From: Prorocentrum cordatum
Taxonomy: Eukaryota
Assembly (NCBI GenBank): GCA_963575745.1
Contig: CAUYUJ010000325.1
Span: forward strand, 372,001 to 436,000
Length of the DNA stretch: 64,000 bases
Direction of reading: 5' to 3'
Shown here: positions 11,314 through 46,879 of the stretch, piece after piece
How the letters are laid out: every line of letters starts with the position of its first letter
How positions within the stretch are numbered: the first letter of the stretch is position 1
Notes under the pieces: model-generated
Database searches by the model: none
What the model saw: the letters and a program-made list of their open reading frames with translations, nothing else
What the model was told of the DNA's origin: nothing
Translations under genes and position numbers: made by a program

Positions 11314-12920
11314 AAATTTGAAATTAAAGGCGGTGCCTTCAAGGCAAGTGGTGGCCAGAAACGCAGACAGGGCCAGACGGGGCCCGCGTTCCCGAAAGGA
11401 GCCGAGTCCTGAGACACGCCCACCCAAGAGGGGCCACCTAGGGCCGCCTCTCGACACGGGCCAGGGAAGGCGGACGGCAAAGCCACTGGCTCTGGCCCCC
11501 AACCTGCCCACGCCAATCATGCAAGCACTGCGAGAACAGAAGCTACGCATGACCACAACCGAACTCGACTGCATTGCAAATACACCACGTGCACATTCAA
11601 ATGCAGGAGACATAAGCCACTGAACAACCACAGCCCCCCACCCCCAATGGGGAACAGACGTGCAGGGCGAAACATCACTCAGAAGGCATTCCGAACACGC
11701 AGGGAAAAGACGTCTCACGGGGGGCACTAACCACGCTGCTCCAACCACTCCTCGGATCCAAGCCTGGAGGCAGCGGCGCCCCGCCTGCAGTACCTCCAGC
11801 GCTCGCTCCTTCATCCGAGGGCGCCTGCGCCGTCGCGGCATCCGCTGCGAGCGAAGCGCGGGCGACGGCCGCCCTCGCACGCCACCAATCACGAGCCGCG
11901 ACCTCGCCACGAGCCCTGGCGCCGCCGCCCCCACGGAAGAGGGCCCGCGGGAAGGCGTCGAGGTACGCGGCGGCGGCGGCAGCAACATGTCCAGCAGGTT
12001 CGGCAGCTGGCGGCCCCCCAACCGAGCACGCGGTGGCCACGTCGGCCTCGCCGTCGAGGATCGCGCCGTCGGAGTCGGAGCACTCGCCAGCAGCGCGCGG
12101 CGGCGCCGCCATAGCGCCCGCGGCCTGCGCGAAGTCCACCTCGCAGACAACCTCCGACACCCCAGGGAAGAGAAGGGAAGGCACGTAGCAATCGCCGATG
12201 TGGGCGCCACGCCCAGCGCGGGCGCGCCCAGCCAGCTCGAACTCCATGTTAAGCTGCTGCTGCGCCTCGTCGCACTCATCGACGTCGATCTGGGCCTGCA
12301 TCCCCTGGGCGCTGCCGCCGCCGGCAACGGGGCCAACCCCGGCCGGGGCGAAGGGCCTCGCAGCCGACCGCCGCGCCGTGCGCAGGGCCACAACTCGGCC
12401 AAGCTGCGGCAGCGCCTCCGCCTCGCAAATCTCCACGTGGCACTCAAACTTGCGCTCTCGCCTCGCCCCCAGCCTGGCGGACCGCTGGAGCCGCCGCAGG
12501 GCGAGGCCACACGCCGACGCAACCCTGGCCCCAGGGGCGTCGGCGTGGAGAGCCACATTCCTCCGCACTGCATCCTCCTGCTCGGGGGCCACTCCCCGCA
12601 GCAAGGCCGTCAGCGCGGGCGCGATCGCACCCGGGCGGTCGGCCAGCTCGGCGTCGCCCACGTAGGACGCGAAGCGCCGCCGAACGGCCTCCAACTCGCT
12701 GCGCAGGGCCGCTGCCTCCGCGAGCGCTGTCTTCACTCCGTTGTCCGCTGCCTCGAGCGCCCGCCCCCGAGCCGCAGAACGCTCCGCGCGCGTCCACCGC
12801 GGCTCGCCGGGGCATGCGCGTGCAGCACCAGGAACACTGCCCAGCGTCCCCGCCCGCGCCATCATGCCCAAGCGCCCGCCGCCGAGCGCCGAGCCAGGCT
12901 TGCACCAAAATGGCTACGGA
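11314..12920 (-). mobile_element. RT-less SL-capped retroelement B1 (1.6 kb)
   Basis: SL 20/22 at 12899-12920. The 3' end is GCCTTGAAGGCACCGCC plus a TTTAA-type tail. A 14-bp TSD TGCTCC(A/G)GTATATT lies at 11300-11313 and 12921-12934, and an empty site is visible at 18979-18992. Confidence 0.85.
11675..12865 (-). CDS. B-family protein (~396 aa; coiled coil, LADR, RRNVALHA, VEICEA), unknown function
   Basis: Uninterrupted ORF starting 33 nt after the SL. Its motifs are shared with the elements at 13.2-14.5 kb and 45.0-46.5 kb. Confidence 0.6.
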   Translation of the reverse strand: MMARAGTLGSVPGAARACPGEPRWTRAERSAARGRALEAADNGVKTALAEAAALRSELEAVRRRFASYVGDAELADRPGAIAPALTALLRGVAPEQEDAVRRNVALHADAPGARVASACGLALRRLQRSARLGARRERKFECHVEICEAEALPQLGRVVALRTARRSAARPFAPAGVGPVAGGGSAQGMQAQIDVDECDEAQQQLNMEFELAGRARAGRGAHIGDCYVPSLLFPGVSEVVCEVDFAQAAGAMAAPPRAAGECSDSDGAILDGEADVATACSVGGPPAAEPAGHVAAAAAAYLDAFPRALFRGGGGARARGEVAARDWWRARAAVARASLAADAATAQAPSDEGASAGGTAGGAPLPPGLDPRSGWSSVVSAPRETSFPCVFGMPSE

Positions 12921-13197
12921 TGCTCCGGTATATTCTGCCATGCTCCTGCGTGTTCTGCGGCGCTCCCCCTTGTTCTGCCGTGCTCTGCCGTGCTCCTCCT
13001 GCTCCTTTGTTATGCCGTGCTGTTGTGTGCTCTGCCGTGCTCCTGAATGTTCTGTGTGTTCTGCCGTGCTCCGTGCGCATTCTGCCGCGCTCGTTCGTGT
13101 TCTGCCGTGTATCTGCGTGTTCCTGTGTGTTGTGTCGTGCTCCTGTGTGTTCTGCCGTGCTCCTGTGCGTTCTGCCGTGCCCCTGCGTGTTCTGCGC

Positions 13198-14550
13198 GTT
13201 AAAAGTTAAAGTTAAAGACGGGGCCTTCAAGGCGGAGTGGTGGGGCCAAAAGGCAAAGAAAAGGACGCGCTCTCCCGAGAGGGGCCGCCTGGGGCCGCCT
13301 CTCGCCGCGGGGGCCGCACTGGGCCTTCACCGCGCGGCACCGCAGGCGAGAGCAGATCTACGCACAGAATGCAACTGCCCGCCTCGCTCTTCGCTCTTGG
13401 GCCGCGTCATGCAACGCGCACGGTCCAAAAGAACGTCGAGAAGCCGCTGGCGCTCCTCGGCATCTGGACAACCTGCACCTCCGAGGCGGACGCCGAGGGC
13501 GCGGGCCTCGGCCAAGTCCAGGGGTCCAGGAGTGACTCAACTCCAGACTTCGGCCCCTTGGCCGCGCGCGCCACCGCCGCCGCCGAGAAGCCGCCCAGGA
13601 ACGAAACGAACGCGCCCTCCGAGCTCGAGCGGCCCTCGCCCTCGGCGCAGTCGACGCTGTCCGCGACCAGGGGCGGCTCCACGTCGTCGCTGACGACGCT
13701 GCTGCCGCCCAGGTGCGGCACGACGTCGTCGGCAAACTCGACGGGTCCACGCGTAGACGGCCTCGAAGAGTCAGCGTCGCTGGCACCAGCCAAACCGTCC
13801 ACGCTGGCACGACCGCCAGCACCAAAGTCTGCACTGCCACGTCCCAAGACGGGAGGCAGCGGCGCACAGCCTGCAGCGCCTCCAGGGACCTTCTGCGCCC
13901 CGAGGGCGGCGGCCACGGAGCAGGAAGAAAACGCAACTGCGCCACAAGTACACCGCATGCCCTCGAAGCCGCGCAAACAGCAAGGCTCGGCCGAAGATCT
14001 CAGCGGCGTGCGCCTCCGCAGCGGCAGACCGCCCATGAGCTTCGGCAGCGGCTCAGCCTCGCAGATCTCCACGTCGATGTCCAGGCCACCTAGCCGAGAG
14101 ACACAAACGCCGTGGTCGCCCACACTGCGGGCGCCTTTCTCCTGCGACCCCAGGCGTTGACCCTTCTGGGCCTTCCTGAGGGGTGCTGCCGCAGCGGAGG
14201 CGATCGACAGCGCCCCGTCGGCCTCGGCGTGGAGCGCCACGTTGCGCCGTAGCCGCTCCAACCAGGTCGGCCCCTCCCCCCGCACAAGCGCAGCCAGTGC
14301 GGGATTACCGCCTGGACCCGATCCGCCAGCCCAGGCACGCCGACGAGCAAGTCGAGGGCGGCCTCCACCGCGCGCAGGCGGGTCTGGGCCTCGCCAGCAG
14401 CCTCCAAGGCACGCCGCACGGCCGCATCAGCAGCCGCTCGGGCGCGCCGCGCCGCCTCGCCTCTCTCGCGCCGCGAGCGGGGGAACCGCAGAGGGCCCCC
14501 TCCCGTGACCATCCCTCGCCCAAGCAAGCTTGAACCGAGCTGGTTATGTG
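13198..14550 (-). mobile_element. RT-less retroelement B2, diverged, ORF frameshifted
   Basis: The 3' end is GCCTTGAAGGCCCCGTC plus (TTTAAC)n. A degenerate SL (14/22) lies at 14529-14550. It encodes GLADRVQAVIP, LRRNVALHA and DVEICEAEPLP. Confidence 0.75.
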
Positions 14551-14719
14551 TGTTCTGCCGTGTTCCTGCGTGTTCTGCTGTGCTCCTGTGTGTTCTGTCA
14601 TGCTCCTATGTATTATGTAAATTCTGCCGTGCTCCTCGTGCTCCGGTTTCTGCCGTGCTCCCGTGTGTTCTTTGGGTTATGCCGCGTTCTGCCGTGCTTC
14701 TGCGCGTTGGGCTGCCAGG

Positions 14720-15240
14720 ACCCGTTCAAAAAGGTTTGTTTGAAAGGATGTCTCGAGCGAAACGCTGATGTTCGAGTGGCAGTGTTGATAACCCATGGGT
14801 GATTCAATAATTTTGCTTCTTGGGCCATCTTGACGTCATCCGAAAACGTTCCAAATGGATGCCTGAAACGAGCTCTTATCGCATCCCATTGTTTCCTGGA
14901 TGTCTCAGGCAAAGCTGTCATTTTTGTCCAGGATGTTTCAGGCAAAGCTGCCGCAGGTTGTCTCAGGATGTTTCCAGGATGTCTCGGGATGTCCCATCGC
15001 AAAGTCCGAAGAGTAGAACAACGACTTCAAGATCATCATTTTCCGCGGATGCCTCAGGCGCAGCGCCCACGTTTAGCATAAGACGTCTGAAGGTACGACC
15101 CCAAACTTCGCAATGAGGCGAGGATGTCTGAGGCAAAACGCATGTTTTCTACCGATCAATGAATTTCGCGGATCAGTGTTTCGAGGATGTCTCGAGCGAG
15201 ACGCTTGTTTTTGTTAAACGCGATGTCGCTGTTTGTGGGC
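14720..15240. repeat. Dispersed repeat rich in GAGGATGTCTC(A/G)AGCGAAACGC
   Basis: The motif recurs here and at about 19440-20230 and 27860-28090. Confidence 0.65.
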
Positions 15241-15385
15241 AACCTGATCGGACAAGACCAGGAAACGTCGCTCCTGTCCACTAGGTATGCAGAGTATGCT
15301 CTTTCGTTGGTCTGCCGCGCAGATATGTCGTGGCGTGCGCGCGCGGAATAGATGAATTTGCGTCCGTGCGTGGTGGTCCGCAACA

Positions 15386-16268
15386 GTTACAGTTAAAGAC
15401 GGGGCCTTCAAGGCAAGTGGTGGCCGGAAACGCAGAGAGGGCCAGACGGGGCCCGCGCCCCGAAAGAAGCTGGGCCCAGAGACACGCCCTCCCAAGAGGG
15501 GCCACCTAGGGCCGCCTCTCGACACGGGCCAGGGAAGGCGGACGGCAAAGCCACTGGCTCTGGTCCCCAACCCGCCCAAGCCAATCATGCAAGCACTGCG
15601 AGAACAGAAGCAACGCATGATCACAACCCAAACTCGACTGCATTGCAAATACACCACGTGCAAATTCGAAGGCAGGAGACATACCCCGCTGAACAACCAC
15701 AGCCCCCCACCCCCAATGGGGAACAGACGTGCAAGGCGAACCATCACTCAGAAGGCATTCCGAACACGCAGGGAAAAGACGTCTCACAAGGAGCACCAAC
15801 CACGCTGCTCCAACCACTCCTCGATTCCAAGCCTGGAGGCAGCGGCGCCCCGCCTGCAGTACCTCCAACGCTCGCTCCTTCATCCGAGGGCGCCTGCACC
15901 GTCGCGGAATCAGCTGCGAGCCAAGCACGGGCGACGGCCGCTCTCGCACGCCACCAATCACGAGCCGCGACCTCGCCTCGAGCCCTGGCGCCGCCGCCCC
16001 CACGGAAGAGGACCTGCGGGAAGGCGTCGAGGTACGTGGCGGCGGCGGCAGCAACGCGTCCAGCAGGTTTCGGCAGCTGGCTGCTCCCCAACCGAGCAAG
16101 AGGTGGCCACGTCGGCCTCGCCGTCGAGGATCACGCCGTCGGAGTCGGAGCACTCGCCAGCAGCGCGCGGCGGCGCCGCCAGAGCGCCCGCGGCCTGCAC
16201 GAAGTCCACCTCGCAGTTAACCTCCGACACCCCAGGGAAGAGAGGGGGAGAGAGGGGAAGGCATGTGT
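15386..16268 (-). mobile_element. 5'-truncated copy B3 of the B1 element
   Basis: Highly similar to 11320-12183, with the same 3' motif and a TTTAAC/TGTAAC tail. A perfect 24-bp TSD GTCCGTGCGTGGTGGTCCGCAACA lies at 15362-15385 and 16269-16292. Confidence 0.88.
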
Positions 16269-16486
16269 GTCCGTGCGTGGTGGTCCGCAACACTGCTGTG
16301 TTATGCCGTGTTCTGTCGTGCACCTGTGTGTTTTGCCATGCTCCTGTGTGTGCTGCCGTGCTCCTGCGCATTATGCAGCGTTTCTGCTCTGCCGTGCTCC
16401 TATGAGTTATGCCGGGATCCTGCGTGTTCTGCCGTGTTCCTATGTGCTATGTGTGTTCAGCCGTGCTTATCGTGATCCTGCGCGTT

Positions 16487-18795
16487 TGTTTAAAGTTTAA
16501 AGTTTAAAGACGGGGCCTTGAGGGCGTAAGCTATGCACCAAATTACGCGCAGGGCCAGACGGGACGGAGTTCCCGAGAGACGCCGAGCCCCAGAGAGCAC
16601 AGAGGGCAGCGCGAGTCTACTCACCAACAGGCGCGAGCCTCACTGCTAACTCTCACTCACCCACGGACAGCGGCCGCACTGCGCCCGACGGCGGCGCCCC
16701 CCGAGGCTCCCGAGTGTCCCGAGCGGCCCCGCGCCGCGCTGGCCACAGGCCCAGCCTTGTGGATCAGGTCCAACTCCGCGCCCGCGGCACGGGGGCGGCC
16801 CTGCCCGCGCGCACTGCGCATGGCCCCAGGAGCTTGCACTCGGCCCTCATGCGCTCCTCGTCCCGCGAAGGCGGCGCTCATGCTGAGGTTCCTGGCCTGC
16901 AGGGTCTTACAGAAAGTCCAGCCCTGCGTCTCCCAATGCCCTCCAGGCTGTCGCGCGCCGCGGAGCCTCGAAGCGCGGGCGGCGGCCTGGGCAGCACTGA
17001 GGGGGAGGTCGCAGAACGCGGAGGAGGCGACCCACTTCCAGCCCAGCGCCCCTTGCTGGGAGGTGAACGACTCGGTGGCCAGGCCCACGAAGCGGGGGAT
17101 ACGCGGCCTATGGTAGAGCACGTGTAGACCTCGAGGAACCCGCAGGTCTACGCCATGCCCGACTCCGCACCGCCACAGGAAGCCGCGACGCAGGCTCTCG
17201 TAGAACCTGGCGGCGTCCAGGCAGAGGCAGACGGAGGCACCTCCCCGCTCGCGCGCAGGCGCGGCGCATGCGCAGTGCAACCAGCCTGCCTTCTCGTGCT
17301 CGCCGTCCACCTTGCCCCCAATGGAGAGGCGGTCGTGCTCCGCCCCTCCCAGCGCGCCGATGGGCTGCCTCGGGCGGCCCCAGATGCGCATGAGCAGCGG
17401 GGCGTTTACGATCGGTCGGACTCCTACATCCGACACGGGAAAGAAGGTCAGCATGGCAGCACGGGCGCCCAGGGGCTGCGGCTGCGCCTCCTGCGCCACC
17501 GGGGGGCCCAGGACGCCCTTCAGCGAGCAGGTCCGCCGCCCCAAGTCTGATGCAATATACACTGCGGCCTCGATCCTCCGAAGCTTGAGGTCGCTCGGGA
17601 CCTGCCGAGCAACCGTCGCTGCCCGCATGGCGCAGCGAACCGAAGGCACGACGCTGCCTGCGCGAACCAGCGGGCCCTCCATGCCCGAGGGCGCGAACAG
17701 GCAGGGGAAGAACGTGCACCACCTGCGGCGCGCAGCTCCTCTGGCCTCCTCTGGGCGGCTCGGGGCGACGCCGGCCTCCTGACGCCGCGCCTGGCTGGGC
17801 TTGGCTCCGCGCCGACAGACGGAGGCCTCAGTGGCCGCTAGGCTCCACCTCCTGGCGTCGCTGTACAACTCCAGCACCTCCTGCCCGCGGAGGCAGCCCT
17901 GAGGCGCCGCAGGGGCCTGGCCTGGTGCCGGTAGGGGCGGCTCGCCCCCGAGGACGTGGAGCCGCTTGCTGCCGCAGCAGGCCACCTCGGCGCTGCCGCG
18001 CGCGCACAGGCGTGGTTCCGCCGCACTGGCCCCGCTAGGCGCTCGTCCGCCCTGGCTGTGCTCCTCCATCGCTGCCTCCAGCTGCGTGGCCAGCAGGGCG
18101 AGCAGCCAGAGGGGCCAGGGCTGCAGCCTCAGCAACCAGCTCCCGCTTGCATGCCTGAGACACCTGCGGCGCCGAGCGCGCTGCCATGCCGCTCCGCTTG
18201 GCCTCGTTCCACGGCGGGCTGCGGCTGCCAGGGCCCACTGCTGCCTGCGAGCTCGCCGTCGTCGCTGCTGATCTCGCCCGCGGAGCAGGACTCCGCCCAC
18301 GGCGCTCGTTTGGGGGCCGAGGGGGGCCCTGCAAGCTGCGCCCGCACCGCCTCGATCTGGGCGCGAATGGCCGCCCATGCCACCTCGAAATTGCTGGAGC
18401 CCCAGGCCTCTGGCAGCTTGTCCAGCTGCGTGAGGAGCCCTGGCACATGGCTGGAACCCACTCGGCCGCGCGCTGACGCTGCCGCGCCTCTGCCTCCTCA
18501 CGGGCCGCTTCTTCGAGAACCTGGAGCGCTCTGCTGGCTCCCTCCACCTCGCCGTCGAGCGCCGCGAGCTCCCCCTGGGCCTTCTGGAGCTGCACCTCCG
18601 CCAGGTCCCGCGCCGCCTGCTTCTGCTCAAGGGCTTGGCGGGCTGAGCGGAGCCGCTTCTCCGCCTTGCTGATGGCGTTCGCCTCGCAAGACAGGAGTGA
18701 ACTGGCCCAAAGCTCGGAGACCCTCGCGGTCACGGCGCCGCGGACGAATCGCGGTCGTCGGGTTCTCCATGGCCTTGAGCCAAAATGGCTACGGA
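16487..18795 (-). mobile_element. Internally deleted LINE A2 (A1 family), SL-capped
   Basis: Perfect SL at 18774-18795 followed by GCCATGGA, as in A1. Has the ORF1 coiled-coil homologue and RT motifs GVRPIVNAPLLMRIWGR and LCLDAARFYESL. Tail is (TTTAAAC)n. A 14-bp TSD TGATCCTGCG(C/T)GTT lies at 16473-16486 and 18798-18811. Confidence 0.85.
18774..18795 (-). other. Dinoflagellate spliced-leader copy, 22/22
   Basis: Reverse complement reads TCCGTAGCCATTTTGGCTCAAG. Confidence 0.97.
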
Positions 18796-18797
18796 TT

Positions 18798-19385
18798 TGA
18801 TCCTGCGTGTTCTGCTGTGCTCCTGCGTGTTCTGCCGTGCTCCTGCATGTTCTGCCATCAAATATGCCGTGCACCTGTGTGTTCGGCCGTGCTCTTGTGT
18901 GTGCTGCCGTGCTCCTGTGTGTTCTGCCGCGCTCCCCCTTGTTCTGCCGTGCCCCTATGTGTTTTGTGTGTTCTGCCGTGCTCCGGTATATTCTGCCATG
19001 CTCCTGCGTGTTCTGCCGCGCTCCCCCTTATTCTGCAGTGCTCCGCCGTGCTCCTCCTGCTCCTGTGTTCTGCCGTGCTGCTGTGTGCTCTGCCGTGCTC
19101 CTGTGCGTTCTGCGTGTTCTGCCGTGCTCTGGCATGTTATTCCGTGTTCTCTGTGTGTTCTGCCGTGTTTCAATGCATGCTGTGCGTTCTGCCTTGCTCC
19201 TCGTGCTTCTGTGTGTTCTGTCGCGCTCCTGCGCAGTCTGCCGCGTTCGCGCGTGTTCTGCCGTGTACCTGCGAGTTCCCGTGTGTTGTGCCGTGCTCCT
19301 GTGTGTTCTGCCGTGCTCCTGTGTGTTCTGCCGTGCTCCCGCGCGTTCTGCCGTGTTCCTGCGTGTTGGTATGCCGTGCTCCTGC
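18798..19385. repeat. TGTGTTCTGCCGTGCTCC satellite; uninterrupted paralogue of the block split by B1
   Basis: Matches about 11120-11313 joined to 12935-13190. Confidence 0.85.
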
Positions 19386-28568: not shown

Positions 28569-30012
28569 AAACGGTTGTTCCCTCTATTCGGGTTTCAAGA
28601 CAATCGGGTTTTGGTATGCGATGGTCTCGTTCGCACCGCTCATGAGGCGGAGGAGGATAACGAGGACCATGATACGAATGATCACATATCGGCATTGATG
28701 TATAGTGATCAATGAAGTACACGCACACTTCTTGTCTTCCTGACATAGAGAACCATGCACGCATCCATACGTAAATCACAAAAACTGGTGCCAACTTTCA
28801 TATGTTTCAAATCCTTGCATATTCCCCAAACCGTGCTTGCACGAAGGAGTTCTCACTTCGTGTTCGAACGAATTCGCCCCGTCAGCCGGCGTCGCCAGGC
28901 GGAGGGAACAAGAGAGGGGCCGTCCGCTCCCTCGCCCCCGCTAGGGGGAGGGCTGTCCACCCCCTCGCCGACGCTAAGCGGATCGACGCGGGGGCCAGGG
29001 CGAACGAGGGGGGGATGAGGGAAGGAGGGAGGGAAGGGATGGGCGGGTGACAGGGAGGAATAAAAGGATGGAGGGAGGGGGCAGGGAGGGAGGGCGGGAA
29101 GGAGGGAGGGAGGGGAAGAGGGTTGTCGCTGCCGCCGCCCCCCCTCCCGGCGCTGCCGCCGCCGATGCCGTTGTCGCTACTGTTCCTGCTGTTTCTCCTG
29201 CTTCTGCTGCTCCTGCTGCTCTTGATGCTCCTACTGCTGCTCTTGCTGCTCCTGCTGCTGTTGCGTCTGCTCCTCCTCCTCGTCCGCCTCCCCAGGCCCC
29301 TCTCCTCCTTCTCCTCCTCCTCCTCCTCCTCCTCCTCCTCCTCCTCCTCCTCCTCCTCCTCCTCCCCTCCTCCCTTTTCTTCTCCTCCACTCCTCCTCCT
29401 TCCTCCTCCTCCTCCTCCTCCTCCTCCTCCTCTCTCTCTCCTCCTCCTCCTCACTTCCTCCTCCTCCCTCCTCCTCCTCCTCCTCCTCCTCCTCCTCCTC
29501 CTCCTCCTCCCCCTCCCTTCCCATCCTCCTCCTCCCCCTCCTCCTCCTCCCGGTCGGAAGGGTTGCGAGCGTCCAGGCACGCGAACGCCTGGAGCCGCAG
29601 CTCGTCAACATACCTGCCTCGTCACAGCGTGCGCACGCGGCACGCTCTCTCTCTTCCCCTGCCCCTCCGTTCCCTCCCCTCCCTCCCTCGCTCCCTTCCA
29701 TTTTCCCTCCCTCAGCCCCCTCCCCTCCATTCCCTCCCCCATACTTCCCTCTCCCATTCCCTGCCTGTTCCTCCTTGTCCCCCTCCTTCCCGTCGTCGTC
29801 TCCTCGTCGTCGTCGTCATTCTCGTCTTTGTCGTCGTCGTCGTACTCCTCCTCCTCCTCTCCTCCTCCTCCTCCTCCACCTCCTCCTCCCTCCTCCTCCT
29901 CCTCCTCTCATCGTCGTCTCTCGTCCGTCGTTCGCCGTCCTCCTCCTCCTCCTCCTCCTCCTCCTCCTCCCCCTCCTCCTCCTCCTCCATCATCATCATC
30001 AAAATCACATCA

Positions 30013-30085
<73 letters not shown>

Positions 30086-30151
30086 ACATCATCATCATCT
30101 TTATCATCCTCCATCCGCCTCCTCCCTCCTCATCCGCATCATCAGCATCAG

Positions 30152-30182
<31 letters not shown>

Positions 30183-30198
30183 GTCATCATCATCATCA

Positions 30199-30248
<50 letters not shown>

Positions 30249-30382
30249 TCATCAATCATCATAATCATCATCATCAGATCATTCATCATCGTCCATCATC
30301 ATCACCATCATCAGCATCACAGCATCATCGTCGTCACCCACCACCACCCACCACCACCACCACCACCATAATCATCATCAAT

Positions 30383-30417
<35 letters not shown>

Positions 30418-32338
30418 ATCATCATCATCAACAACATCGTCATCGGTCCATCGTCATCGTCATCATCGTCAATCACATCGTCATCATCGTCACATCTCAT
30501 CATCGTCATTATCTTTGTTTCGTCCTCGTCAGGCTCCTCCTCTTCCCCCCCATCCCCCTTCCCCTCCCCTCCTCCCCCTCCTCCTCCTCCTCCTCCTCCT
30601 CCTCCTCCTCCTCCTCCTCCTCCTCCTCTTCCTTTCTCACTGTTCCTGTTCTCTCCTCCTCCTCCTCCTCGTTCCTCCTCTTCCTCCTCCTGCTGCTCCC
30701 ACTCGTGCTCCCGCTCCTACTCGTGCTCCCCCTTCCCCCTCCTCCTGCTCGTGCTCCTGCTCGTGCTACTCGTGGTCCTGCTCGTGGTCCTGCTCGTGGT
30801 CCTGCTCCTGGTGCTGTCGTTGCTGCTCCCGCTCTTTCTCCTGCTCCACATCCGCCACCGTGCCGCGAGGCACGAATTGTAGTGTCCTCAGGTCCCTTGT
30901 AGTCCTCAGTCTTCAGTCCTAATGATTGAGTGTTCAGGGGCCCAGACCCCAGATTCTTAAATTTCCTGGGCCATCCCGTGGCTTTCCCTTTCCCAGGCCC
31001 CGGCAAGTGTTCCCTTTTTCGGAGTTGGGAGGGCCCCGCAACGAGTCCAGGGCCTCAAGAGGCCCCCAAGACGGCCCAAGAGGGCCCCGAGTCGCCGAAA
31101 CATCGCTCCAAGACGCCGAATATGGCCTCCAGACGGCCCAAGACGCCTACCGGAGGCCCCTAGAGGCCTCCGAGAGCAATCCCAAGAGGGTCCCAAGAGG
31201 CAAGATGCACAGATTTCCCATAATTTTGACAAATTTGGGAGTTCTCGCCCTTTCGGCTCCCCGACGCTCCAAAATCGCCCAAGAGGCCCACAAGAGGCCC
31301 CCAGAATAGCCAAAGAGACCCCTAAGAGAAGGCGCCAACACGGCCCAAGAGGCCCCCAAGACGGCCCCAAGAGGGGGAACCCCGAACGGGCATTTCGAGC
31401 CTTCCGCTCCGAGATGGCCCCAAGAGCTCCACGAGGCCGGTTGCCTCCTGTTGCCTCCTGGCCGCCACGTAAAGCCAGGCATGGAGGTTTCCGTAGAAGC
31501 CCGGCTATACCAAGTGCGTTTCACGAAGCCCTCCCCCCTTTTTCTCCATCCCGGTCGTCTCTAAGTGCCGATAAATAAAAAACTAACGCGTTTTTGGTTT
31601 TGTTGCTTCCTCCCCTCCTTTTTCCCCCCTTGGGGCATGCCCCCCAGGAGGCCCCAAGGGGCGCCCAAGAGGCCCCCAAGGAGGCCCCGGGAGACCCCCA
31701 CGGGGCCCCAAAGAGATCCCCACGAGCCCTCCCAGAGGCCCCGGGCCCCCGACCTACAACCCGGGCGCGGTGGCGGGGTGGGCCGAAGGCCACTAGATCA
31801 TCACCCCCCCTCCTGTCCGCCTCCCCGCCGCCGTTTCGTCTCAAGCTCTGCCCGTCGGGCCAGTTCCTCGGGCCGGGGCCATGGAGCCCCAGGCGCGCGC
31901 CGCCGCGACGCGCAGCGGCGGCGGCGCTCGCGGCGCAGCCGTTGCGCTGACGCAGGACGAGTTCCCGGTCGTGTTCGGCGCGTTGGCCCTGGTGGCCGGC
32001 ACGCCGCACGCCGTGGCGTTCGCCCTGGGCCTCATGCTCCTCGAGAGGGTGGACTTGATCTGCAACCTACGTCGCGACGACGTGCGCGACTCTCGAGCAG
32101 ACCCGGAGCGCGGCACAGTGGCGATTCGGTCGGTGAACAAGAAGACAGTCCCTCGGAACGGTTGGATGAGCGAGTGGGCGCAGCAGATCTTCCAGAAGGA
32201 CACTATGAGTATACCAGCCCGCAGCGTGGCGCGCGGGAAGGAGGGGAGGCAATCGCGGCTCCGAGCAGACCGCGCCGTCGTCCTGGGTCGCCCCCAAGAG
32301 GAGCGAGGGGCAATTCCAGGCGTGGGCGCCAGTGCGCG
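28569..32338 (+). repeat. Left arm of a large inverted repeat
   Basis: Reverse-complement match to 37017-40290, including unique segments such as ACGGTTGTTCCCTCTATTCGGGTTTCAAGAC and colinear (CCT)n and (CAT)n tracts. Confidence 0.92.
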
Positions 32339-33678
32339 AAGACGTGGCTGGCAAGCGAGGGCCAGAGATAGCGCTCGCGCCCAGGGGCGGGCTCGTGGGG
32401 ATCGCGCGGACGGAGGAGGGCTGGCACGGCGCGAAGGTCCGACCAGGCCCGCGCATCCTCGACGGCGCCACCGGGTGGGCCCCCGTGCCCATCAGCGCGA
32501 AGTTCCGCCGCGAGGAGCGCAAGAGCCGGAAGGACACGATCGCGAACGTCGGCAGCGTGCCGCTCTTCCCCGGCTGGGAGCCGCAGGACCCCCAGCTGGG
32601 CAAGCGGGTCGTCTCGCTGAAGCCGATGGACGTCCAAGCAGGCCGCTGGACAAGCGATAGGACCGACTTTGAGGTTTTGCTGTCGTCTGCCCGTCGGGGG
32701 GCAGGTGGGCGGGCGGGGGCGGGGGGGGGGGGGAGGGGCGGGCGCCGCGGCCCAGAGAGATAGGGCGCGCCCCCAGGACGCTGCCGTCGGGCCCTGATGG
32801 CGGAGCGGGCCCAAAGGCATGCCCCTCCGGCGGAGGCCGCCGGGGAGGGCCCGGCCGACGGGGGCCAGGACCAGCGCAACCTGTCGCGGATCTCGAGCCT
32901 CCTCAGCCAGCTGGACGGCGCGCCGCTGTCGAAGATTCGCACCCGCAGCATGCGATATGGGAGCCTCCGGCTGGCGCCGCGCGCGACTCCCCGCCCCTCG
33001 GGTGGCCCCGCGGCAGGGGCCTTGGCGGGCGGGCGGACACGGCGAAATCAGCCAGACGGTCGACAGCGGGGCGCCCCCCCCCCCCCCGAGGCACCCCTCG
33101 GGTGGCCCAGCGGCAGGATCCTGGCGGATCAGCCAGATGGTCGTCCGCGGGGCCGCCCCCCCCCCTCCCCGGCACCGCGTCGGGCGGCCCCGCGGCAGGG
33201 GCTTGGCGGACATTCTGGGATCAGCCAGATGGTCGACGGCGGCGCGGACATCGACCTTGCCGGCGCCGTCGCCGGGCATAGGGTGGGCCCCGAGGTGGCG
33301 CGGCGGATCTACAACCAGGCGACGCTGAGCCGCCAGAAGACCGCGACGCAGGCCTCCGCGGGCGCGCGCCTGGCGGCGCGCGGGCGCGCGGTGGACGCGC
33401 TCGGCGCGCCGGCCGCTGGGGGCGCCGCTGGGGGGCGCGCGGAGCCAGGGGGCGCCGCGGCAACCGCCTTGGCAGCTGTGGCGCCCGCCGCGGCCGGTCC
33501 GCGGGCCCTCGCAGGGGCGCGCCGCGAGGCCCCTGAGGGCGGCGCCGCGGCAGCGGCGGCCGACGTCGAGCAGGCCCTGGCGATGCTGCGCGCGGCGCGG
33601 GCCCTAGTCGGCACGGCGGCCTTCGAGGATGCCCTGGCGAGGCTCCGGCAGGGCGACCACCCGGGGGCAGCGGCGTAG
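31881..33678 (+). CDS. Tyrosine recombinase (phage-integrase-family catalytic domain), interrupted; possibly Crypton-like or pseudogenised
   Basis: Motifs in order: LTQDEF; LLERVDLICNLRRDDV (box I R, 32046); VAIRSVNKKTVPR (K); PLFP; IRTRSMR then HSGISQMVDGGADIDLAGAVAGHRVGPEVARRIY (GH 33274-33279, Y 33310). There is a +1 G near 32241 and a putative GC-AG intron at 32642-32776. Confidence 0.7.
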
Positions 33679-39021: not shown

Positions 39022-39052
39022 GGAGGAGGAGGAGGAGGAGGAGGAGGAGGAC

Positions 39053-39093
<41 letters not shown>

Positions 39094-40958: not shown

Positions 40959-40990
<32 letters not shown>

Positions 40991-42687: not shown

Positions 42688-42965
42688 CTTAGGATCCAAT
42701 GAAATCCTAAGGATTCCTCGGGATTCCTAAGGCATCCTTAGGCATCCTTAGGAATCCATTTAGGAAACCTTAGGAATCCTTAGGAATCCTGATTCCCAGG
42801 GATTCCTACGGATTCCTAAGGATTCCTGAGGAATCCCAAGGATTCCTAAGGATTCCTGAGGATTCCTGAGGATGCTTAACTATGCCTACGGATTCCTAAG
42901 GATGCCTACGGATTCCTAAGGATTCCTAGGGATTCCTAAGGATTCCTATGGATTCCTACGGATGC
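42688..42965. repeat. 10-bp GGATTCCTAA repeat with an internal inverted block
   Basis: GGATTCCTAA units flank reverse-complement TTAGGAATCC units at about 42735-42790. Confidence 0.85.
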
Positions 42966-43830: not shown

Positions 43831-43831
43831 C

Positions 43832-44128
43832 GGGCATTCAAAATATGGCACAGGACTGGTGTTCTGGGAACACGAAGATCACGAAGTTGCCCACAGCTGG
43901 CTCTGGGCAATCAGAATATGGTATAGGAATGGTGTTCTGGGAGCACGAAGGTCACGAAGTGGCCCACAGCTGGCTCCGGGCAATCAAACTATGTTACAGG
44001 AATGGTGTTCTGGGAACACGAAGAACACGAAGTGGCCTACAGTTGGCTCCGGGCATTCAAAATGTGGCCTGGGAATGGTGTTCTGGTGGCTCCGGGCAGT
44101 CAAAATGTGGCTCCTGGCAGTCAAAATG
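43832..44128. repeat. Diverged 73-bp tandem repeat, about 3.5 copies
   Basis: GGGCA(T/A)TCA units start at 43832, 43905, 43978 and 44051. Confidence 0.85.
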
Positions 44129-45032
44129 GGGAGTCCCCGGGTTCCCCGGCTTCTCCCGGCACCCGCCCAGACCCCCCTGGGGAGTCAAGATGCTCTCTTT
44201 TGAGACCACTAGAAATTATCAGTCTTCGCTGTTAAATAAAAAATCACATCAGCGGCTGCGACGAAAAGCCAGCCCTGCGCAAAAGGGCGGACTGCTGGGG
44301 AGCCCGCGTAAAAACACGACATAGGACCCAGGGATCCCGACGATCCTGATCCCAGGATCGGTTCGATTATCTTCGGGACGCGCGCTGGCGCCAACGCGCG
44401 CTTGTCCACAAAGCCTTCCGATGCGACGCATGCTGTGCAATGAAGGCCGACGCGGGCTGCGTGCCTAGAGGACACCCAAAGGGGTTAAGAAAAAATGGGG
44501 TCCAAGGATCGCGCCGAATTCAATATGCATCGCCGATGCATTGGCGACGCATCGGCGACGTCGGCGATGCATCGGCGACGCGGGGGTGGAGAAAACCAGG
44601 CTCCACATCGCGTCGCATCGGCGATGCGGCGCGATCCGCCGACTCTGTCTACTCGGACCCCACGTGGGGAGGCCTGGAGTGCTATCGGCGGACCTGAACG
44701 GGGTGAACACAGATGGGGCCAACAATTTCTGATCGGCGGCGCCTTGGATCCAATTTGCGGTTGTGGCTACGACAGGGCTGCTGCGGAGCGAATTAAGCAC
44801 AAAGGCGGCGAGGAAGGCCGGGAGGGAAAGGGGGGAGGACCGTGGACGGCTGAAAGCCCCCAGACGTTCCCCAGGACCGGTTTTTCATCCGGAGCCGTTC
44901 TTTGACAGTTCGGGGCTCTCGCGAGGGCCCCCAGAGGCCGAAGACAACGAAAAGCCTCCGTGCCGAATATTTCCATACGCTAGAAGTCTGAGGACGTCGT
45001 CGACGTCTTCGTCCTTGTCGTCGACGTCGTCC

Positions 45033-45054
45033 TCCGTAGCCATTTTGGCTCAAG
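45033..45054 (+). other. Dinoflagellate spliced-leader copy, 22/22
   Basis: TCCGTAGCCATTTTGGCTCAAG read directly. Confidence 0.97.
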
Positions 45055-45090
45055 CTGGCTCGAACCCCCAGGCGGGCGGCGCGGGCACGA

Positions 45091-46296
45091 TTGCTGCGGG
45101 AGGCGCCACTGGAGGGCGCCAAGCGGCGGCGACGAGGAGGGAGAGAAGGGCCTGGGCCAGGCGGCGCGGTGGTTGAGGGCGAGGGCCTCGCGGACCGTTT
45201 GTCGGCCTGCGTGCCCGCGCTCGCTGCCATGCTGGAAGGGCGCAGATCGACGGCGATGCAGAGGCTGCGGCGCAACGTCGCGCTGCACGCGGCTCGGGTG
45301 CCGCGGCGGCTGGGCCAGGCCCCAGCGGCCGCCCTGCGGGAGGCTGCCAAGGGGCCCAGGCTCGGGGCTGGCGTGGATGCAGGCCGCGGAGGCGATGACG
45401 TGGAGTCGGGCGAGCAGGACTTCGAGATGGAGGTATGCGTGGCGCAACTGGGGGCCGCGGCGTGCAAGGACCGCTGGCGGTCGGCAGTGCCGCGGGAGGC
45501 GCCGAGCCCTGGCGCCGATGTGCAGGCGATGCTGGACTGGCTGGCGGTGGATGGAGCCACCACGGAGAAGAAGCAGACAAGGAGGTGCAGGTATTCGGCC
45601 AGCTCGACCTCGAGAGTGGAAACTGAGGGGCACGTGCTCTGGGCGCTCGCGCCGGGGCTGTGGCTGGAGCCGGACACGCACCCGCAAGCCGTGGCCTTCG
45701 CTGACGGCCTGGAGGCGGGCTGGAGGCTGGCGGAGCGCAGCGCCGTGGCGGGCGCGGAAGAGAACGCGGACACCTCGGACGATGGGGCGAACGACGACGA
45801 GGACGAGCGGCAGGTCAAGGCGGGGATCGACGTCGGGGCGGCGACGGAGTTGGATGGCTTCGGCAAGACGGAGGACTCGGAGGACGAGCTGGTAGGCGTG
45901 AAGGACGTCGAGACGATCGTCGTAGACGCGGACGTCGGCGGTGAGTTCGGCGGGAGCGCCTCGGGCGACCTTGGCGCTGCGGGGGGCTGCGGGCTCAGTG
46001 GCGGCGACGTGCACGGCAACGGCGGGCTCGACGTGAGCCTCCTGGGCGAGCTCGGCGCCACGGCGGGGAGCGAGCGCGGGAGCGACTTCAATGACAAGAA
46101 CGACAGCGACGTAGAGTCGGAGGAGAGCGAGATCCGCTTCGCGGGGGTCCAAGTGGAGAAGAGCGTGGCCGTGCCGCGGACGCTGCACGAGGATCCGCTG
46201 GCAGTGGCTGACAGGCTCATCGCGGAGCACCAGGCGCGCGTGGAGGCGAAGGCGGCCAGCCGATTGGCAAGCATGGGGCGGTGGCGGTTCGCCTAG
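45091..46296 (+). CDS. B-family protein (GLADRL..PALAAMLEG..LRRNVALHA..EMEVCVA) with acidic C-terminal half; start uncertain
   Basis: 401-aa open frame whose motifs align with B1 and B2. The first in-frame ATG (45229) lies inside the conserved block. Confidence 0.6.
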   Translation: MLREAPLEGAKRRRRGGREGPGPGGAVVEGEGLADRLSACVPALAAMLEGRRSTAMQRLRRNVALHAARVPRRLGQAPAAALREAAKGPRLGAGVDAGRGGDDVESGEQDFEMEVCVAQLGAAACKDRWRSAVPREAPSPGADVQAMLDWLAVDGATTEKKQTRRCRYSASSTSRVETEGHVLWALAPGLWLEPDTHPQAVAFADGLEAGWRLAERSAVAGAEENADTSDDGANDDEDERQVKAGIDVGAATELDGFGKTEDSEDELVGVKDVETIVVDADVGGEFGGSASGDLGAAGGCGLSGGDVHGNGGLDVSLLGELGATAGSERGSDFNDKNDSDVESEESEIRFAGVQVEKSVAVPRTLHEDPLAVADRLIAEHQARVEAKAASRLASMGRWRFA

Positions 46297-46879
46297 CCCC
46301 GAGGAGAGGAGCGCGGGGCCTCGACGGTGGTGGCGGGGCCGCCCAGCCGTCGAGGCGAGGAGGCCTGGGGTGGTGGTGGGTTCGCCTAGCCCCGAGAGGC
46401 AATGGCCAAGGCCTGAGAGGGCCCGCGCTGTGCGCCCACTGCGCGAGCGCGGCGCTGCCCCGAGGGGACCCCGTCGAAAAGCGTCGAAAAGCGTCGACGT
46501 CGTCCTCGTCGTCGCCTCAGACGAGGCGCCTCGGCCCCGCCCGCGCCGCGTCGGCGCAGCGCCGAAACCGCGCCCTCCTTGGAGCAATGCCGAGGGGGGT
46601 CACTACTGTCCTCGAGACAACGCCATCTCCCGGAAGAAGTGGGTGCCCAAGATCCGCCACCGCGCTTGCAGCGGCAGGTGTGTGTCGGGCCCTTTCGCTT
46701 TTTGCGAAGCAGTGATGCCCCCCCCCCCCCGACGGATCGAGCCCAAGATGCGTTTAGTTGTCACCAAATCCCTGCGTTGTTGGCCTTCCAAGCGGAAAAT
46801 GTGCCCACATACGAAATGTGGCGAGAGAGGTTCCATGGATCCTCCACTGTCCCAAGCGCTCGCCATGGCCACAGCGGGT

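What the first reader, a model, noticed from the sequence alone, without database searches (positions are those of the whole stretch)
11314..46491. Family of SL-capped, RT-less, protein-coding retroelements (RRNVALHA family) that share a LINE 3' end
Seen: B1 (11314-12920), B2 (13198-14550), B3 (15386-16268) and B4 (45033-46491) have no RT motifs. B1, B3 and B4 have 14-24 bp TSDs, all four have short-repeat tails, and B3 is 5'-truncated. The three full-length copies start with an SL and keep LADR..(I/V)P..RRNVALHA..(V/M)E(I/V)C despite strong DNA divergence. Known: TSDs with 5' truncation are hallmarks of target-primed reverse transcription. Inference: this is a non-autonomous retroposon class mobilised in trans by the local LINE, with a cargo protein under selection. 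That differs from ordinary SINEs (non-coding) and from single-copy retrogenes. I do not recognise the protein family.
Basis: partly seen in the sequence, partly recalled or inferred. Interest (0 to 1): 0.9.

Follow-up and report, generated by a model that had tools for sequence, protein, structure and literature searches.

The report
Spliced-leader-capped coding retroposons sharing a LINE tail
A dinoflagellate genome segment holds RT-less, protein-coding retrocopies that begin with the spliced leader and end in the same tail as a neighbouring LINE, which points to LINE machinery as the maker of dinoflagellate retrocopies.

Summary
The observation largely holds. B1, B3 and B4 are real insertions with 14, 24 and 15 bp target-site duplications. 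For B1 an uninterrupted "empty site" paralogue lies in the same window. B1 and B4 start with the dinoflagellate spliced leader, B2 with a decayed one, and B3 is 5'-truncated.

B1 and B3 share about 75-95 nt of 3' end, and B2 about 25 nt, with two spliced-leader-capped, internally deleted copies (A, C) of an APE-type LINE. All five sit in one orientation in a 20-bp satellite. A, B1, B3 and C were all inserted just after GCAG, which argues for one endonuclease acting in trans. B4 shares neither the tail nor the target.

The ORF has no Pfam family. Its N-terminal helical domain of about 125 aa defines a large family: 238 clusters at 50% identity, from Prorocentrum cordatum and unnamed mRNA-sized contigs. 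It shows no detectable homology to the LINE protein. Every nucleotide difference in RRNVALHA among B1, B2 and B4 is synonymous, so there is deep protein-level selection. Within the young B1 subfamily substitutions look neutral (9 synonymous, 22 non-synonymous). The family is transcribed in sense.

Verdict: a new variant of the LINE/non-autonomous-partner theme. Whether the protein serves the element is open.

The parts
11314..12920 (-). B1: full-length retroposon copy (1607 bp). It runs from the SL (T + CCGTAGCCATTTTGGTGCAAG, 2 mismatches) through a 5'UTR, a 396-aa ORF and a 361-nt 3'UTR to the tail CTTTAATTTCAAATTT.
   Evidence: the 14-bp TSD lies at 12921-12934 and 11300-11313; empty-site paralogue
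11675..12865 (-). B1 ORF, 396 aa and intact. Residues ~21-140 form the conserved helical N-domain that holds LADR and RRNVALHA.
11314..11405 (-). LINE-like 3' module of B1: the box CGGGAACGCGGGCCCCGTCTGGCCCTG, then GCCTTGAAGGCACCGCCTTTAA, then the tail.
   Evidence: 58/74 identical to A
13198..14550 (-). B2: an older, diverged paralogue. It has a decayed SL, a frameshifted ORF and a terminal ~25 nt plus tail (CTTTAACTTTAACTTTTAAC) like the LINE. It also shares a 48-nt 3'UTR box with B1 (40/48).
15386..16268 (-). B3: a 5'-truncated copy of the B1 type, 93.2% identical, with a frameshift and the tail CTTTAACTGTAAC.
   Evidence: the 24-bp TSD lies at 16269-16292 and 15362-15385
45034..46491 (+). 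B4: a retrocopy of another branch of the same protein family. It has a perfect SL, a different 3' end with the tail (GTCGAAAAGC)x2, and no ATG before the LADR block.
   Evidence: the 15-bp TSD lies at 45019-45033 and 46492-46506
6339..10874 (-). A: an SL-capped, TSD-flanked copy of an APE-type LINE. It holds a RanBP-like zinc finger, a coiled coil, EN, the C-terminal half of RT, a CCHC finger and an RNase H-like part. It lacks about 330 aa of the RT N-terminal half and carries frameshifts.
   Evidence: the TSD ACATAGAACATCT lies at 10875-10887 and 6326-6338
16487..18797 (-). C: a shorter SL-capped deletion derivative of the same LINE, with the same 3' module and the tail (CTTTAAA)n.
   Evidence: the TSD AACRCGCAGGATCA lies at 18798-18811 and 16473-16486; empty site
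18940..19040 (-). Empty-site paralogue of the B1 insertion. It holds B1's 5' flank, one copy of the 14-bp target (18979-18992) and B1's 3' flank, uninterrupted.
11070..11180 (-). Empty-site paralogue of the C insertion, with a single target copy at 11119-11132.
10885..11284 (.). 20-bp satellite (GTGTTCTGCCGTGCTCCTGT). This is one of six array pieces (6087-6161, 10885-11284, 12933-13195, 14550-14607, 16308-16446, 18801-19385) that received A, B1, B2, B3 and C, all in one orientation.

Best explanation
B1, B3 and the older B2 are copies of a non-autonomous, protein-coding non-LTR retroposon lineage of Prorocentrum cordatum.

Proposed cycle:
1. A genomic copy is transcribed by read-through from its surroundings.
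2. SL trans-splicing gives the RNA its capped 5' end, so no internal promoter is needed (inferred).
3. The RNA ends in a 3' module, a conserved box plus GCCTTGAAGGCCCCGTCTTTAA plus a (CTTTAA)n-like tail. It shares this module with an APE-type LINE family.
4. That LINE's endonuclease/reverse transcriptase, supplied in trans, nicks the target at N|CTGCYG. This site occurs once per unit of a 20-bp satellite.
5. The enzyme primes on the tail and copies the RNA up to the SL, leaving TSDs of 13-24 bp.

The ORF encodes a member of a large dinoflagellate family defined by a helical N-terminal domain of about 125 aa. This domain is not related to the LINE's own protein. It is under long-term purifying selection, but the copies in this window are decaying neutrally or are already broken. 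What the protein does for the element, if anything, is not known. My best guess is an RNA-binding or RNP-forming role like that of an ORF1 protein (inferred, weak).

B4 is a retrocopy of another branch of the same protein family, made with a different 3' end at a different kind of target, so presumably by another element.
For: SHOWN
- SL at the exact 5' end of A, B1, C and B4: 4 matches against 0 expected.
- TSDs for A, B1, B3, C and B4.
- Empty-site paralogues for B1 and C inside the window.
- 3' homology: A-B1 58/74 and A-B3 61/80, scores 63-68 against a shuffle mean of 21-22, sd 2.3-2.4, maximum 29 of 200.
- The 16-mer AAGGCCCCGTCTTYAA (up to 2 mismatches) occurs 5 times, only at the ends of A, B1, B2, B3 and C, against 0.03 expected.
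- B1 and B2, 43% identical as proteins, share a further 48-nt 3'UTR box (40/48) that A lacks. The tail-bearing architecture is therefore inherited, not made anew in each copy.
- In all 4 determinable cases in the satellite cluster (A, B1, B3, C) the TSD starts right after GCAG. GCAG precedes 21 of 400 positions in the array. All 5 elements have one orientation.
- A belongs to a LINE. Among 13 relatives, Exo_endo_phos is found in 4 (P0023 at 30.0 bits, cut-off 24.5), zf-RVT weakly in 2, and RVT_1 weakly in 1. A maps to P0023 residues 34-628, 960-1353 and 1529-1635.
- Transcription: 1220 of 1220 laid reads of a stranded RNA run lie in the direction that fits minus-strand (sense) RNA. Depth is 0 in 11250-11308 and starts in the bin that holds the element's 3' end.
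- Copy number: 17 annotated proteins in 4 clusters are 85-89% identical to B1 and 395-397 aa long.
- Protein selection. The AF2 model has pLDDT 91-98 over residues 21-140.

INFERRED
- Trans-mobilisation.
- The trans-splice site that renews the SL.
- The role of the protein.
Against: - Within the B1 subfamily the pattern is neutral: 9 synonymous against 22 non-synonymous among the 31 ORF differences shown (40 rows shown, 145 not shown). GC3 is not raised in B1.
- ORFs stay open easily in this GC-rich DNA: there are 62 stop-to-stop ORFs of 250 aa or more in the window. Raw alignment scores in wrong frames and antisense are as high as in frame.
- B2, B3 and B4 are defective.
- No intact autonomous LINE with this tail lies in the window. 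The RT domain is only weakly recognised: RVT_1 17.4 bits against a cut-off of 29.6, and a PDB profile search gave nothing.
- The terminal hairpin appears in only 2 of 5 single-sequence folds, without a significant z-score, and no covariation is possible.
- 13 of 20 family clusters looked up come from unnamed short contigs, so the family may be an ordinary host gene family in many species.
- No genome was available to count copies or to look for a parent gene.
Confidence: 0.6

Rival explanations
1. These are ordinary retrogenes. B1-B4 would be dead-on-arrival processed copies of highly expressed host genes of a large dinoflagellate gene family. The LINE-like 3' end would come from template switching (a LINE-mRNA chimera) or from chance capture. 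There would be no self-propagating B lineage, and the protein would have nothing to do with mobility.
For: - SL-tagged retrogenes are very common in dinoflagellates (PMC6050394 and PMC12014239, passages read).
- The substitution pattern within the B1 subfamily is neutral.
- B2, B3 and B4 are broken, and B4 has a different 3' end.
- The N-domain family is large and is found in unnamed contigs that are probably from other species.
Against: - B1, B3 and the expressed relatives keep the same junction to the LINE-like module.
- B2, a deep paralogue, has the same terminal module plus a B-specific 3'UTR box shared with B1. This argues for inheritance along a retroposing lineage.
- At least 17 near-identical annotated copies exist.
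- None of the copies has a poly(A) tail.
Confidence: 0.22
2. B is an ORF1-only, internally deleted derivative of an autonomous LINE, like HAL1 or HeT-A. The RRNVALHA protein would be the first ORF of a complete element, and B would keep only that ORF and the 3' end.
For: - 2 of 14 long LINE-like gene models (P0013, P0018) begin with a B-like N-terminus.
- A and C show that deletion derivatives of this LINE are retrotransposed.
Against: - A and C start with the SL followed directly by their own 5'UTR and the zinc-finger/coiled-coil ORF, with no B-like sequence.
- P0013 reads through an A-type 5'UTR, and P0018 joins a complete B2-type ORF to an RT that starts in mid-domain. These look like gene models that merge adjacent head-to-tail insertions, as also lie in this window.
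- The profile-profile comparison of the N-domain against the LINE protein gives probability 1.1%.
Confidence: 0.08
3. The copies arose by DNA-level duplication, that is segmental duplication or gene conversion within a satellite-rich region. The SL-like and TSD-like strings would be by-products of the repeats.
For: The satellite blocks are themselves duplicated: 11119-11313 is 91.8% identical to 18798-18992, and 12921-13195 is 81.5% identical to 18979-19261.
Against: - The duplicated satellite copy lacks B1 and holds exactly one copy of its target. The same holds for C.
- The TSDs of B3 and B4 occur only at their flanks.
- The SL sits exactly at the element starts.
- B3 is truncated at the 5' end only.
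Confidence: 0.02

Closest known systems
Stringent LINE/SINE pairs that share a 3' end, such as eel UnaL2/UnaSINE1 with a (TGTAA)n tail (recalled from my own knowledge, not read here)
   Same: A non-autonomous element carries the last tens of nucleotides and the short-repeat tail of a partner LINE. It is inserted with TSDs, presumably because the LINE's RT recognises that 3' end.
   Different: The head of B is an SL-capped mRNA with a 396-aa ORF (1.6 kb), not a Pol III tRNA-, 7SL- or 5S-derived, non-coding unit of under 600 bp. A terminal stem-loop is not established here.
Dinoflagellate retrogenes with a relic DinoSL (PMC6050394, PMC12014239, PMC7245778; passages read)
   Same: A DNA-encoded SL sits at the 5' end of an intronless, transcribed copy, in a genome with rampant retroposition.
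   Different: Those papers do not report TSDs, LINE-type tails or a partner element. PMC6050394 calls the mediating retroelement unknown and favours Ty1/copia. Here the copies carry a LINE 3' module, share the LINE's target site and form a multi-copy lineage, and the LINE itself is SL-capped.
ORF1-only non-autonomous non-LTR elements: mammalian HAL1 and Drosophila HeT-A (recalled)
   Same: They are RT-less, protein-coding non-LTR retroposons that depend on an RT supplied in trans.
   Different: Their ORF is homologous to the ORF1/Gag of the autonomous relative. The B protein shows no detectable homology to the partner LINE's protein.
Trypanosomatid RIME/ingi and NARTc/L1Tc (abstracts seen in the listing)
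   Same: Truncated or deleted non-autonomous partners of a LINE, in an organism that uses SL trans-splicing and polycistronic transcription. A and C are the direct analogue.
   Different: Those elements use an internal Pr77 promoter and give unspliced transcripts (abstracts of PMC1874656 and PMC3383444). Here the retrotransposed RNA carries the SL.
Satellite- or microsatellite-specific LINEs (recalled; compare the abstract of PMC4640811 in the listing)
   Same: Insertions recur in one phase and one orientation of a tandem repeat.
   Different: The endonuclease here is APE-type by its Pfam hits. The specificity rests on only 4 insertions.

Membership tests
APE-type non-LTR retrotransposon (LINE): elements A and C | Apurinic-like endonuclease (Exo_endo_phos) domain | tested here: met
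   4 of 13 relatives hit PF03372. P0023 scores 30.0 bits against a cut-off of 24.5; the others score 18.1-19.2. A aligns to that part of P0023 (residues 292-628). A's own ORFs gave no direct Pfam hit.
APE-type non-LTR retrotransposon (LINE): elements A and C | Reverse transcriptase domain | tested here: inconclusive
   RVT_1 is found only in P0026, at 17.4 bits against a cut-off of 29.6. zf-RVT scores 21.7 and 18.1 bits in 2 relatives, and E 0.058 in A. LDITKFYEN and VADD/VVDD strings were read by eye in P0023, P0018 and the A6 consensus. The PDB profile search gave nothing. The AF2 model is too poor to search (mean pLDDT 37.6). A itself lacks about 330 aa of the RT N-terminal half.
APE-type non-LTR retrotransposon (LINE): elements A and C | TSDs, a 3' tail and 5' truncated or deleted copies | tested here: met
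SINE (partner of a stringent LINE) | 3' end shared with a LINE | tested here: met
   Met for B1 and B3 (58/74 and 61/80). B2 shares only the terminal ~25 nt. B4 does not share it.
SINE (partner of a stringent LINE) | Short, non-coding, with a Pol III-type head (tRNA, 7SL or 5S) | tested here: not met
   The element is 1.6 kb, starts with an SL and holds a 396-aa ORF. No tRNA scan was run.
Dinoflagellate retrogene (relic DinoSL) | DNA-encoded SL at the 5' end of the copy | tested here: met
Dinoflagellate retrogene (relic DinoSL) | A parent gene elsewhere (with introns or its own locus), of which this is a processed copy | not testable with these tools
   No genome is held. Only proteins of the public annotation could be seen.
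ORF1-only LINE derivative (HAL1 / HeT-A type) | The ORF is homologous to the partner LINE's first ORF | tested here: not met
   hhalign of A5 against A6 gives probability 1.1%. BLASTP of B1 against A's coiled-coil ORF gives E 0.095.
ORF1-only LINE derivative (HAL1 / HeT-A type) | No RT of its own, with the LINE's 3' end | tested here: met
RRNVALHA N-domain protein family (unnamed) | Conserved helical N-terminal domain of about 125 aa with ADR..PAL..LRRNVALH..GPRL | tested here: met
   The profile search found 238 clusters at E<=1e-3 and 111 at E<=1e-10. Nearly invariant columns are listed. AF2 gives pLDDT 91-98 over residues 21-140. B1, B2 (after a frameshift) and B4 hold the domain.

The most novel reading that the evidence does not exclude
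In this dinoflagellate a whole retroposon community has given up internal promoters. The community comprises an APE-type LINE, its deletion derivatives and a lineage of protein-coding partners. Any sense-oriented copy in a transcribed region would be cut out of the read-through RNA and re-capped by SL trans-splicing at the relic SL, then copied back by the LINE through the shared tail. On this reading the RRNVALHA-domain protein is a retroposon-encoded, ORF1-like RNP factor that evolved independently of the LINE's own protein. Much of what is annotated as 'retrogenes' or 'dark' multi-copy genes in dinoflagellates would then be such LINE-tail-bearing elements.
Probability: 0.25. Interest if true: 0.8.

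Novelty: new variant of a known kind. Interest (0 to 1): 0.6.

Why it matters
Which retroelement makes the very numerous SL-tagged retrocopies of dinoflagellates is stated to be unknown, and an LTR (Ty1/copia) source has been favoured (PMC6050394 and PMC3942190, passages read).

This window gives direct structural evidence for the other answer. The SL-capped copies have TSDs, empty sites, a LINE-type short-repeat tail and the same insertion site as an APE-type LINE that is itself SL-capped.

- It suggests how a LINE can live without an internal promoter in a genome that relies on trans-splicing.
- It defines a large, unnamed dinoflagellate protein domain family.
- It shows that public gene models of P. 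cordatum include retroposon copies (17 near-identical proteins) and fusions of neighbouring elements (P0013, P0018).

My literature searches found no paper describing SL-capped LINEs or coding LINE partners in dinoflagellates. The library lacks most subscription journals, so this is not proof that none exists.

Tried and rejected
- Whole genome: none is held. The genome-wide census, dN/dS on a tree and the parent-gene search could therefore not be done.
- Pfam on the B ORFs and on 26 family members: 23 of 26 had no family. The RING/GT, globin and MORN hits look like merged neighbours or weak matches.
- Fold searches with the B1 model: Foldseek against PDB gave nothing at E<=0.001. VIA wide gave only helical hairpins for residues 284-353, at Z up to 7.4, below the level that means anything for helices.
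- ESM Atlas: no usable hit.
- Homodimer prediction of the N-domain: no verdict (score 0.00, controls not run).
- AF2 of A's 715-aa ORF: mean pLDDT 37.6, not searched further.
- PDB profile search with the LINE alignment: only one chance-level row, E 0.41.
- Metagenome scans: the peptide-pattern scan gave 40 pattern matches and 0 confirmed. The 3'-motif scan gave 27 loci, all without a tail, upstream similarity or SL, so they are chance matches.
- Earlier findings of this scan: none.
- Frame test by raw Smith-Waterman scores: uninformative, because composition bias makes wrong frames and antisense score as high.
- Terminal hairpin: present in 2 of 5 single folds, with z-scores of -0.9 and -0.6, so it is not evidence.
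- A similarity I thought I saw by eye between the B1/B2 upstream 3'UTR box and A was not significant and is dropped.
- B2's TSD: a 20/22 match exists but is offset by 6 nt and is expected from the 20-bp periodicity, so it is not counted.
- One literature query failed on syntax.

Full report
ORGANISM AND SETTING

The window is GC-rich (0.53-0.75) and carries the dinoflagellate spliced leader (SL). The closest proteins in the public collections are named Prorocentrum cordatum. No whole genome is held for the window. Everything below therefore rests on the 64 kb, on public protein collections, on one set of sequencing runs and on papers.

WHAT IS IN THE SEQUENCE

The 21-nt SL CCGTAGCCATTTTGGCTCAAG occurs four times with up to 3 mismatches, against 0 expected (the same four sites with the 14-mer):
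- 10854-10874(-)
- 12899-12919(-), with 2 mismatches
- 18774-18794(-)
- 45034-45054(+)

These are the 5' ends of four units, which I call A, B1, C and B4. Self-comparison and reading of the ends give six elements:
- A: 6339-10874(-)
- B1: 11314-12920(-)
- B2: 13198-14550(-)
- B3: 15386-16268(-)
- C: 16487-18797(-)
- B4: 45034-46491(+)

A, B1, B2, B3 and C lie in one orientation in pieces of a single 20-bp satellite, GTGTTCTGCCGTGCTCCTGT.

INSERTIONS, NOT DUPLICATIONS

Target-site duplications (TSDs) are as follows:
- A: ACATAGAACATCT
- B1: AATATACYGGAGCA
- B3: 24 bp
- C: AACRCGCAGGATCA
- B4: CGTCGACGTCGTCCT

The TSDs of A, B3 and B4 occur only at their two flanks in the whole window. The third occurrences of the B1 and C motifs turned out to be empty sites.

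The satellite block 18798-19261 is a paralogue of the two flanks of B1. It is 91.8% identical over 195 columns and 81.5% over 287. At 18940-19040 it runs from B1's 5' flank through one copy of the 14-bp target into B1's 3' flank without interruption. Conversely, 11070-11180 is the uninterrupted empty site of C. So B1 and C both inserted after the satellite block was duplicated.

B3 is 93.2% identical to the 3' 859 columns of B1. It lacks the 5' 0.7 kb and has a frameshift. None of the elements ends in poly(A). The tails are CTTTAA-like short repeats, except in B4, which ends in two copies of GTCGAAAAGC. B2 starts with a decayed SL (14 of 21 positions by my count). Its TSD cannot be separated from satellite periodicity.

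THE NEIGHBOURING LINE

A and C gave almost nothing in Pfam directly: zf-RVT at E 0.058 in A's 715-aa ORF, among 42 minus-strand ORFs scanned. A's ORF has 14 long relatives in P. cordatum. Of the 13 scanned:
- 4 hit Exo_endo_phos (P0023 at 30.0 bits, above the cut-off of 24.5)
- 2 hit zf-RVT weakly
- 1 hits RVT_1 weakly (17.4 bits against a cut-off of 29.6)

By eye the relatives show LQET, LDITKFYEN, V(A/V)DD, a CCHC finger and an RNase H-like DGS..G.. stretch.

The family is therefore an APE-type LINE with a very divergent RT, and the RT assignment is not formally secured. The PDB profile search was empty and the AF2 model was unusable.

A maps to P0023 residues 34-628, 960-1353 and 1529-1635, so it lacks about 330 aa of the RT N-terminal half. 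C is deleted further. Both are nevertheless SL-capped and TSD-flanked. The 'local LINE' is thus two defective copies of a LINE family whose fuller versions lie elsewhere.

THE SHARED 3' END

The 16-mer AAGGCCCCGTCTTYAA (up to 2 mismatches) occurs five times, only at the 3' ends of A, B1, B2, B3 and C, against 0.03 expected. Local alignment of the 3' regions with the tails removed gave:
- A-B1: 58/74 identical
- A-B3: 61/80 identical
- Scores 63-68, against shuffle means of 21-22 (sd 2.3-2.4, maximum 29 of 200)
- A-B2: nothing beyond the terminal ~17-25 nt
- A-B4 and B1-B4: nothing

B1 and B2 share an extra 48-nt box (40/48) upstream of the LINE-like part, which A lacks. So two B lineages that are only 43% identical as proteins share a B-specific 3'UTR plus the LINE terminus. 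This is what inheritance along a retroposing lineage predicts, rather than independent chimeras. A terminal hairpin, UUGAAGGC-NCC-GYCUUUAA, is proposed by the alignment fold. It appears in only 2 of 5 single folds, without a significant z-score, so I do not count it as evidence.

SAME TARGET SITE

With maximal TSDs, the 5' TSD copy of A, B1, B3 and C is immediately preceded by GCAG. This corresponds to a nick at N|CTGCYG on the opposite strand, once per satellite unit. GCAG precedes 21 of 400 positions in the array. Taking the first case as defining the motif, three further hits have a chance of about 1e-4. This explains the common orientation. It is independent evidence that the enzyme that inserted the LINE copies also inserted B1 and B3. 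B4's target (…CCTTGT|CGTCGAC…) differs, in keeping with its different 3' end.

THE PROTEIN

B1 has an intact 396-aa ORF. No Pfam family is found for B1, B4, B2 or their relatives. Close relatives are four clusters holding 17 sequences, 85-89% identical and 395-397 aa long. A diverged 545-aa protein has a gene model that starts with the translated SL.

A profile of B1, its relatives, B2 and B4 (A1) found 238 clusters at 50% identity with E<=1e-3, 111 with E<=1e-10 and 7 with E<=1e-30. The common part is an N-terminal domain of about 125 aa..SADRAV.KL..EL……ADR..A..PAL…G..P…LRRNVALHA..G…A…LR.AQ.GPRLE. The C-termini are variable and mostly unrecognisable.

Of 20 clusters looked up, 7 are P. cordatum proteins. 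The other 13 come from unnamed ENA, JGI or Logan contigs of 532-2060 bp, which is mRNA size. Their less GC-biased composition suggests other species, but that is an inference.

AF2 with 113 sequences models residues 21-140 at pLDDT 91-98 as a long helix followed by four shorter ones. A helical hairpin at 291-346 is moderately confident, and the rest is disordered. The structure and atlas searches gave nothing informative. The domain is not related to the LINE's protein: hhalign probability 1.1% and BLASTP E 0.095.

IS THE ORF UNDER SELECTION?

Caution is needed because the DNA is so GC-rich.
- ORFs of 250 aa or more are common: 62 stop-to-stop in the window.
- Wrong-frame and antisense alignments score as high as the real frame.
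- B1's GC3 is not elevated: 0.78/0.64/0.78 by codon position.

The deep evidence is positive. In the eight RRNVALHA codons all 14 pairwise nucleotide differences among B1, B2 and B4 are synonymous. Hundreds of diverged clusters keep the domain, including residues that GC bias does not favour.

The shallow evidence is neutral. Among the differences between the window's B1 and the expressed relatives that displayed (40 rows; 145 more not shown), 31 lie in the ORF. Of these 9 are synonymous and 22 are not, which is 29% synonymous against 27% expected at random. Also, 85-89% protein identity at about 93% DNA identity is roughly what neutrality gives.

One weak counter-hint concerns indels. At a share of 10% of reads or more, indels were listed only at 11563 (3'UTR) and 12888 (5'UTR), and none within the 1.19-kb ORF (table 4).

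My reading is that the domain is a real protein under long-term constraint. The individual copies here are dead or dying, as expected for retroposon copies. Whether the constraint acts on master elements or on host genes is open.

EXPRESSION

A stranded RNA run (raw reads, X24) gave 1220 reads on 11250-13000 at 90% identity or more: 13 at >=99%, 525 at 95-99% and 682 at 90-95%. All lie in the direction that fits minus-strand, that is sense, RNA.
- Depth is 0 in 11250-11308. It begins in the bin that contains the 3' end (11314) and falls to about 3 beyond the SL.
- Fixed differences (for example 53 of 53 reads at 11399) show that the expressed copies are paralogues, not this copy.
- Six reads join the element's 3' end through CTTT to satellite sequence, and 19 reads run from position 12724 into satellite. 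So other full-length and 5'-truncated copies sit in the same satellite and are read through.
- A poly(A)-selected marine metatranscriptome holds a 1268-nt contig over 11568-12835 with 61 differences.

GENE MODELS THAT FUSE B AND THE LINE

2 of the 14 long LINE-like proteins (P0013, P0018) start with a B-like N-terminus. P0013 continues through what in A is 5'UTR into the LINE ORF. P0018 joins a complete B2-type ORF to an RT that begins in mid-domain. I take these as predicted genes spanning adjacent head-to-tail insertions, as in this window. They are the main reason to keep the ORF1-derivative rival alive.

MECHANISM PROPOSED

Shown:
- SL-capped RNA copied to its very 5' end
- TSDs and empty sites
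- The shared 3' module
- The shared target phase
- Sense transcription of the family
- An RT-less ORF from a conserved family

Inferred:
- The A-type LINE's EN/RT acts in trans through the shared tail.
- The primer end …GTT-3' left by the nick pairs with the …AAC end of the tail repeats.
- Copies are expressed by read-through and re-capped by trans-splicing. All four copies with an intact SL carry exactly one SL rather than an SL plus a relic. If masters are themselves retrocopies, the AG at the end of the relic SL should therefore be the acceptor.
- The role of the protein is unknown. An ORF1-like RNP function is my guess. The homodimer job gave no verdict.

COMPARISON WITH WHAT IS KNOWN

SL relics on dinoflagellate retrogenes are well known (passages read). 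Sharing of a LINE 3' end by non-autonomous partners, and RT-less coding non-LTR elements (HAL1, HeT-A), are known from other organisms; this is recalled, not read here. What I did not find in five searches is any of the following for dinoflagellates:
- a description of SL-capped LINEs
- TSD- and tail-bearing SL retrocopies
- a coding LINE partner

The reviews read call the responsible retroelement unknown and lean towards Ty1/copia. I therefore rate this a new variant of a known kind, of good interest for dinoflagellate genome biology. The census of the full genome is the obvious decisive step.

Noticed in passing
6339-10874 (-) and 16487-18797 (-): Two LINE-derived copies (A, C) are themselves capped by a perfect spliced leader and flanked by TSDs. 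Both are internally deleted, so deletion derivatives of the LINE are retrotransposed too. A lies outside the finding's start coordinate.
   Followed up: yes
6087-6161, 10885-11284, 12933-13195, 14550-14607, 16308-16446, 18801-19385: A 20-bp satellite (GTGTTCTGCCGTGCTCCTGT) acts as a landing pad. Five insertions lie in one orientation, and four have a TSD that starts right after GCAG.
   Followed up: yes
10885-13195 versus 16308-19385: The satellite block was segmentally duplicated before B1 and C inserted. Each paralogue keeps the other's empty site (18979-18992 for B1, 11119-11132 for C).
   Followed up: yes
28570-32342 versus 40290-37012: A large inverted duplication, 85-88% identical over 1.7 and 2.3 kb, is embedded in low-complexity repeats that recur across 29-41 kb.
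   Followed up: no
49452-50125: A near-perfect tandem array with a period of about 73 bp, 97-99% identical between copies.
   Followed up: no
14700-15385: A unique, lower-GC segment lies between satellite and B3. It has 33-bp and 10-bp repeats (GGATGTCTCAGGCAAAGCTG-like). Nothing was identified in it.
   Followed up: no
11314-12920 (reads): Differences between the DNA copy and the RNA reads are dominated by G>A and C>T on the + strand (31 and 23 of 146 places by kind in X24). This could reflect paralogue divergence at CpG or mRNA editing. I could not tell which.
   Followed up: no
public proteins P0013, P0018, P0060, P0143: Public gene models of P. cordatum fuse B-like ORFs with LINE ORFs or with unrelated domains (glycosyltransferase plus RING, globin). 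Several models start with the translated SL (PFWLK…). This points to retroposon copies annotated as genes.
   Followed up: partly
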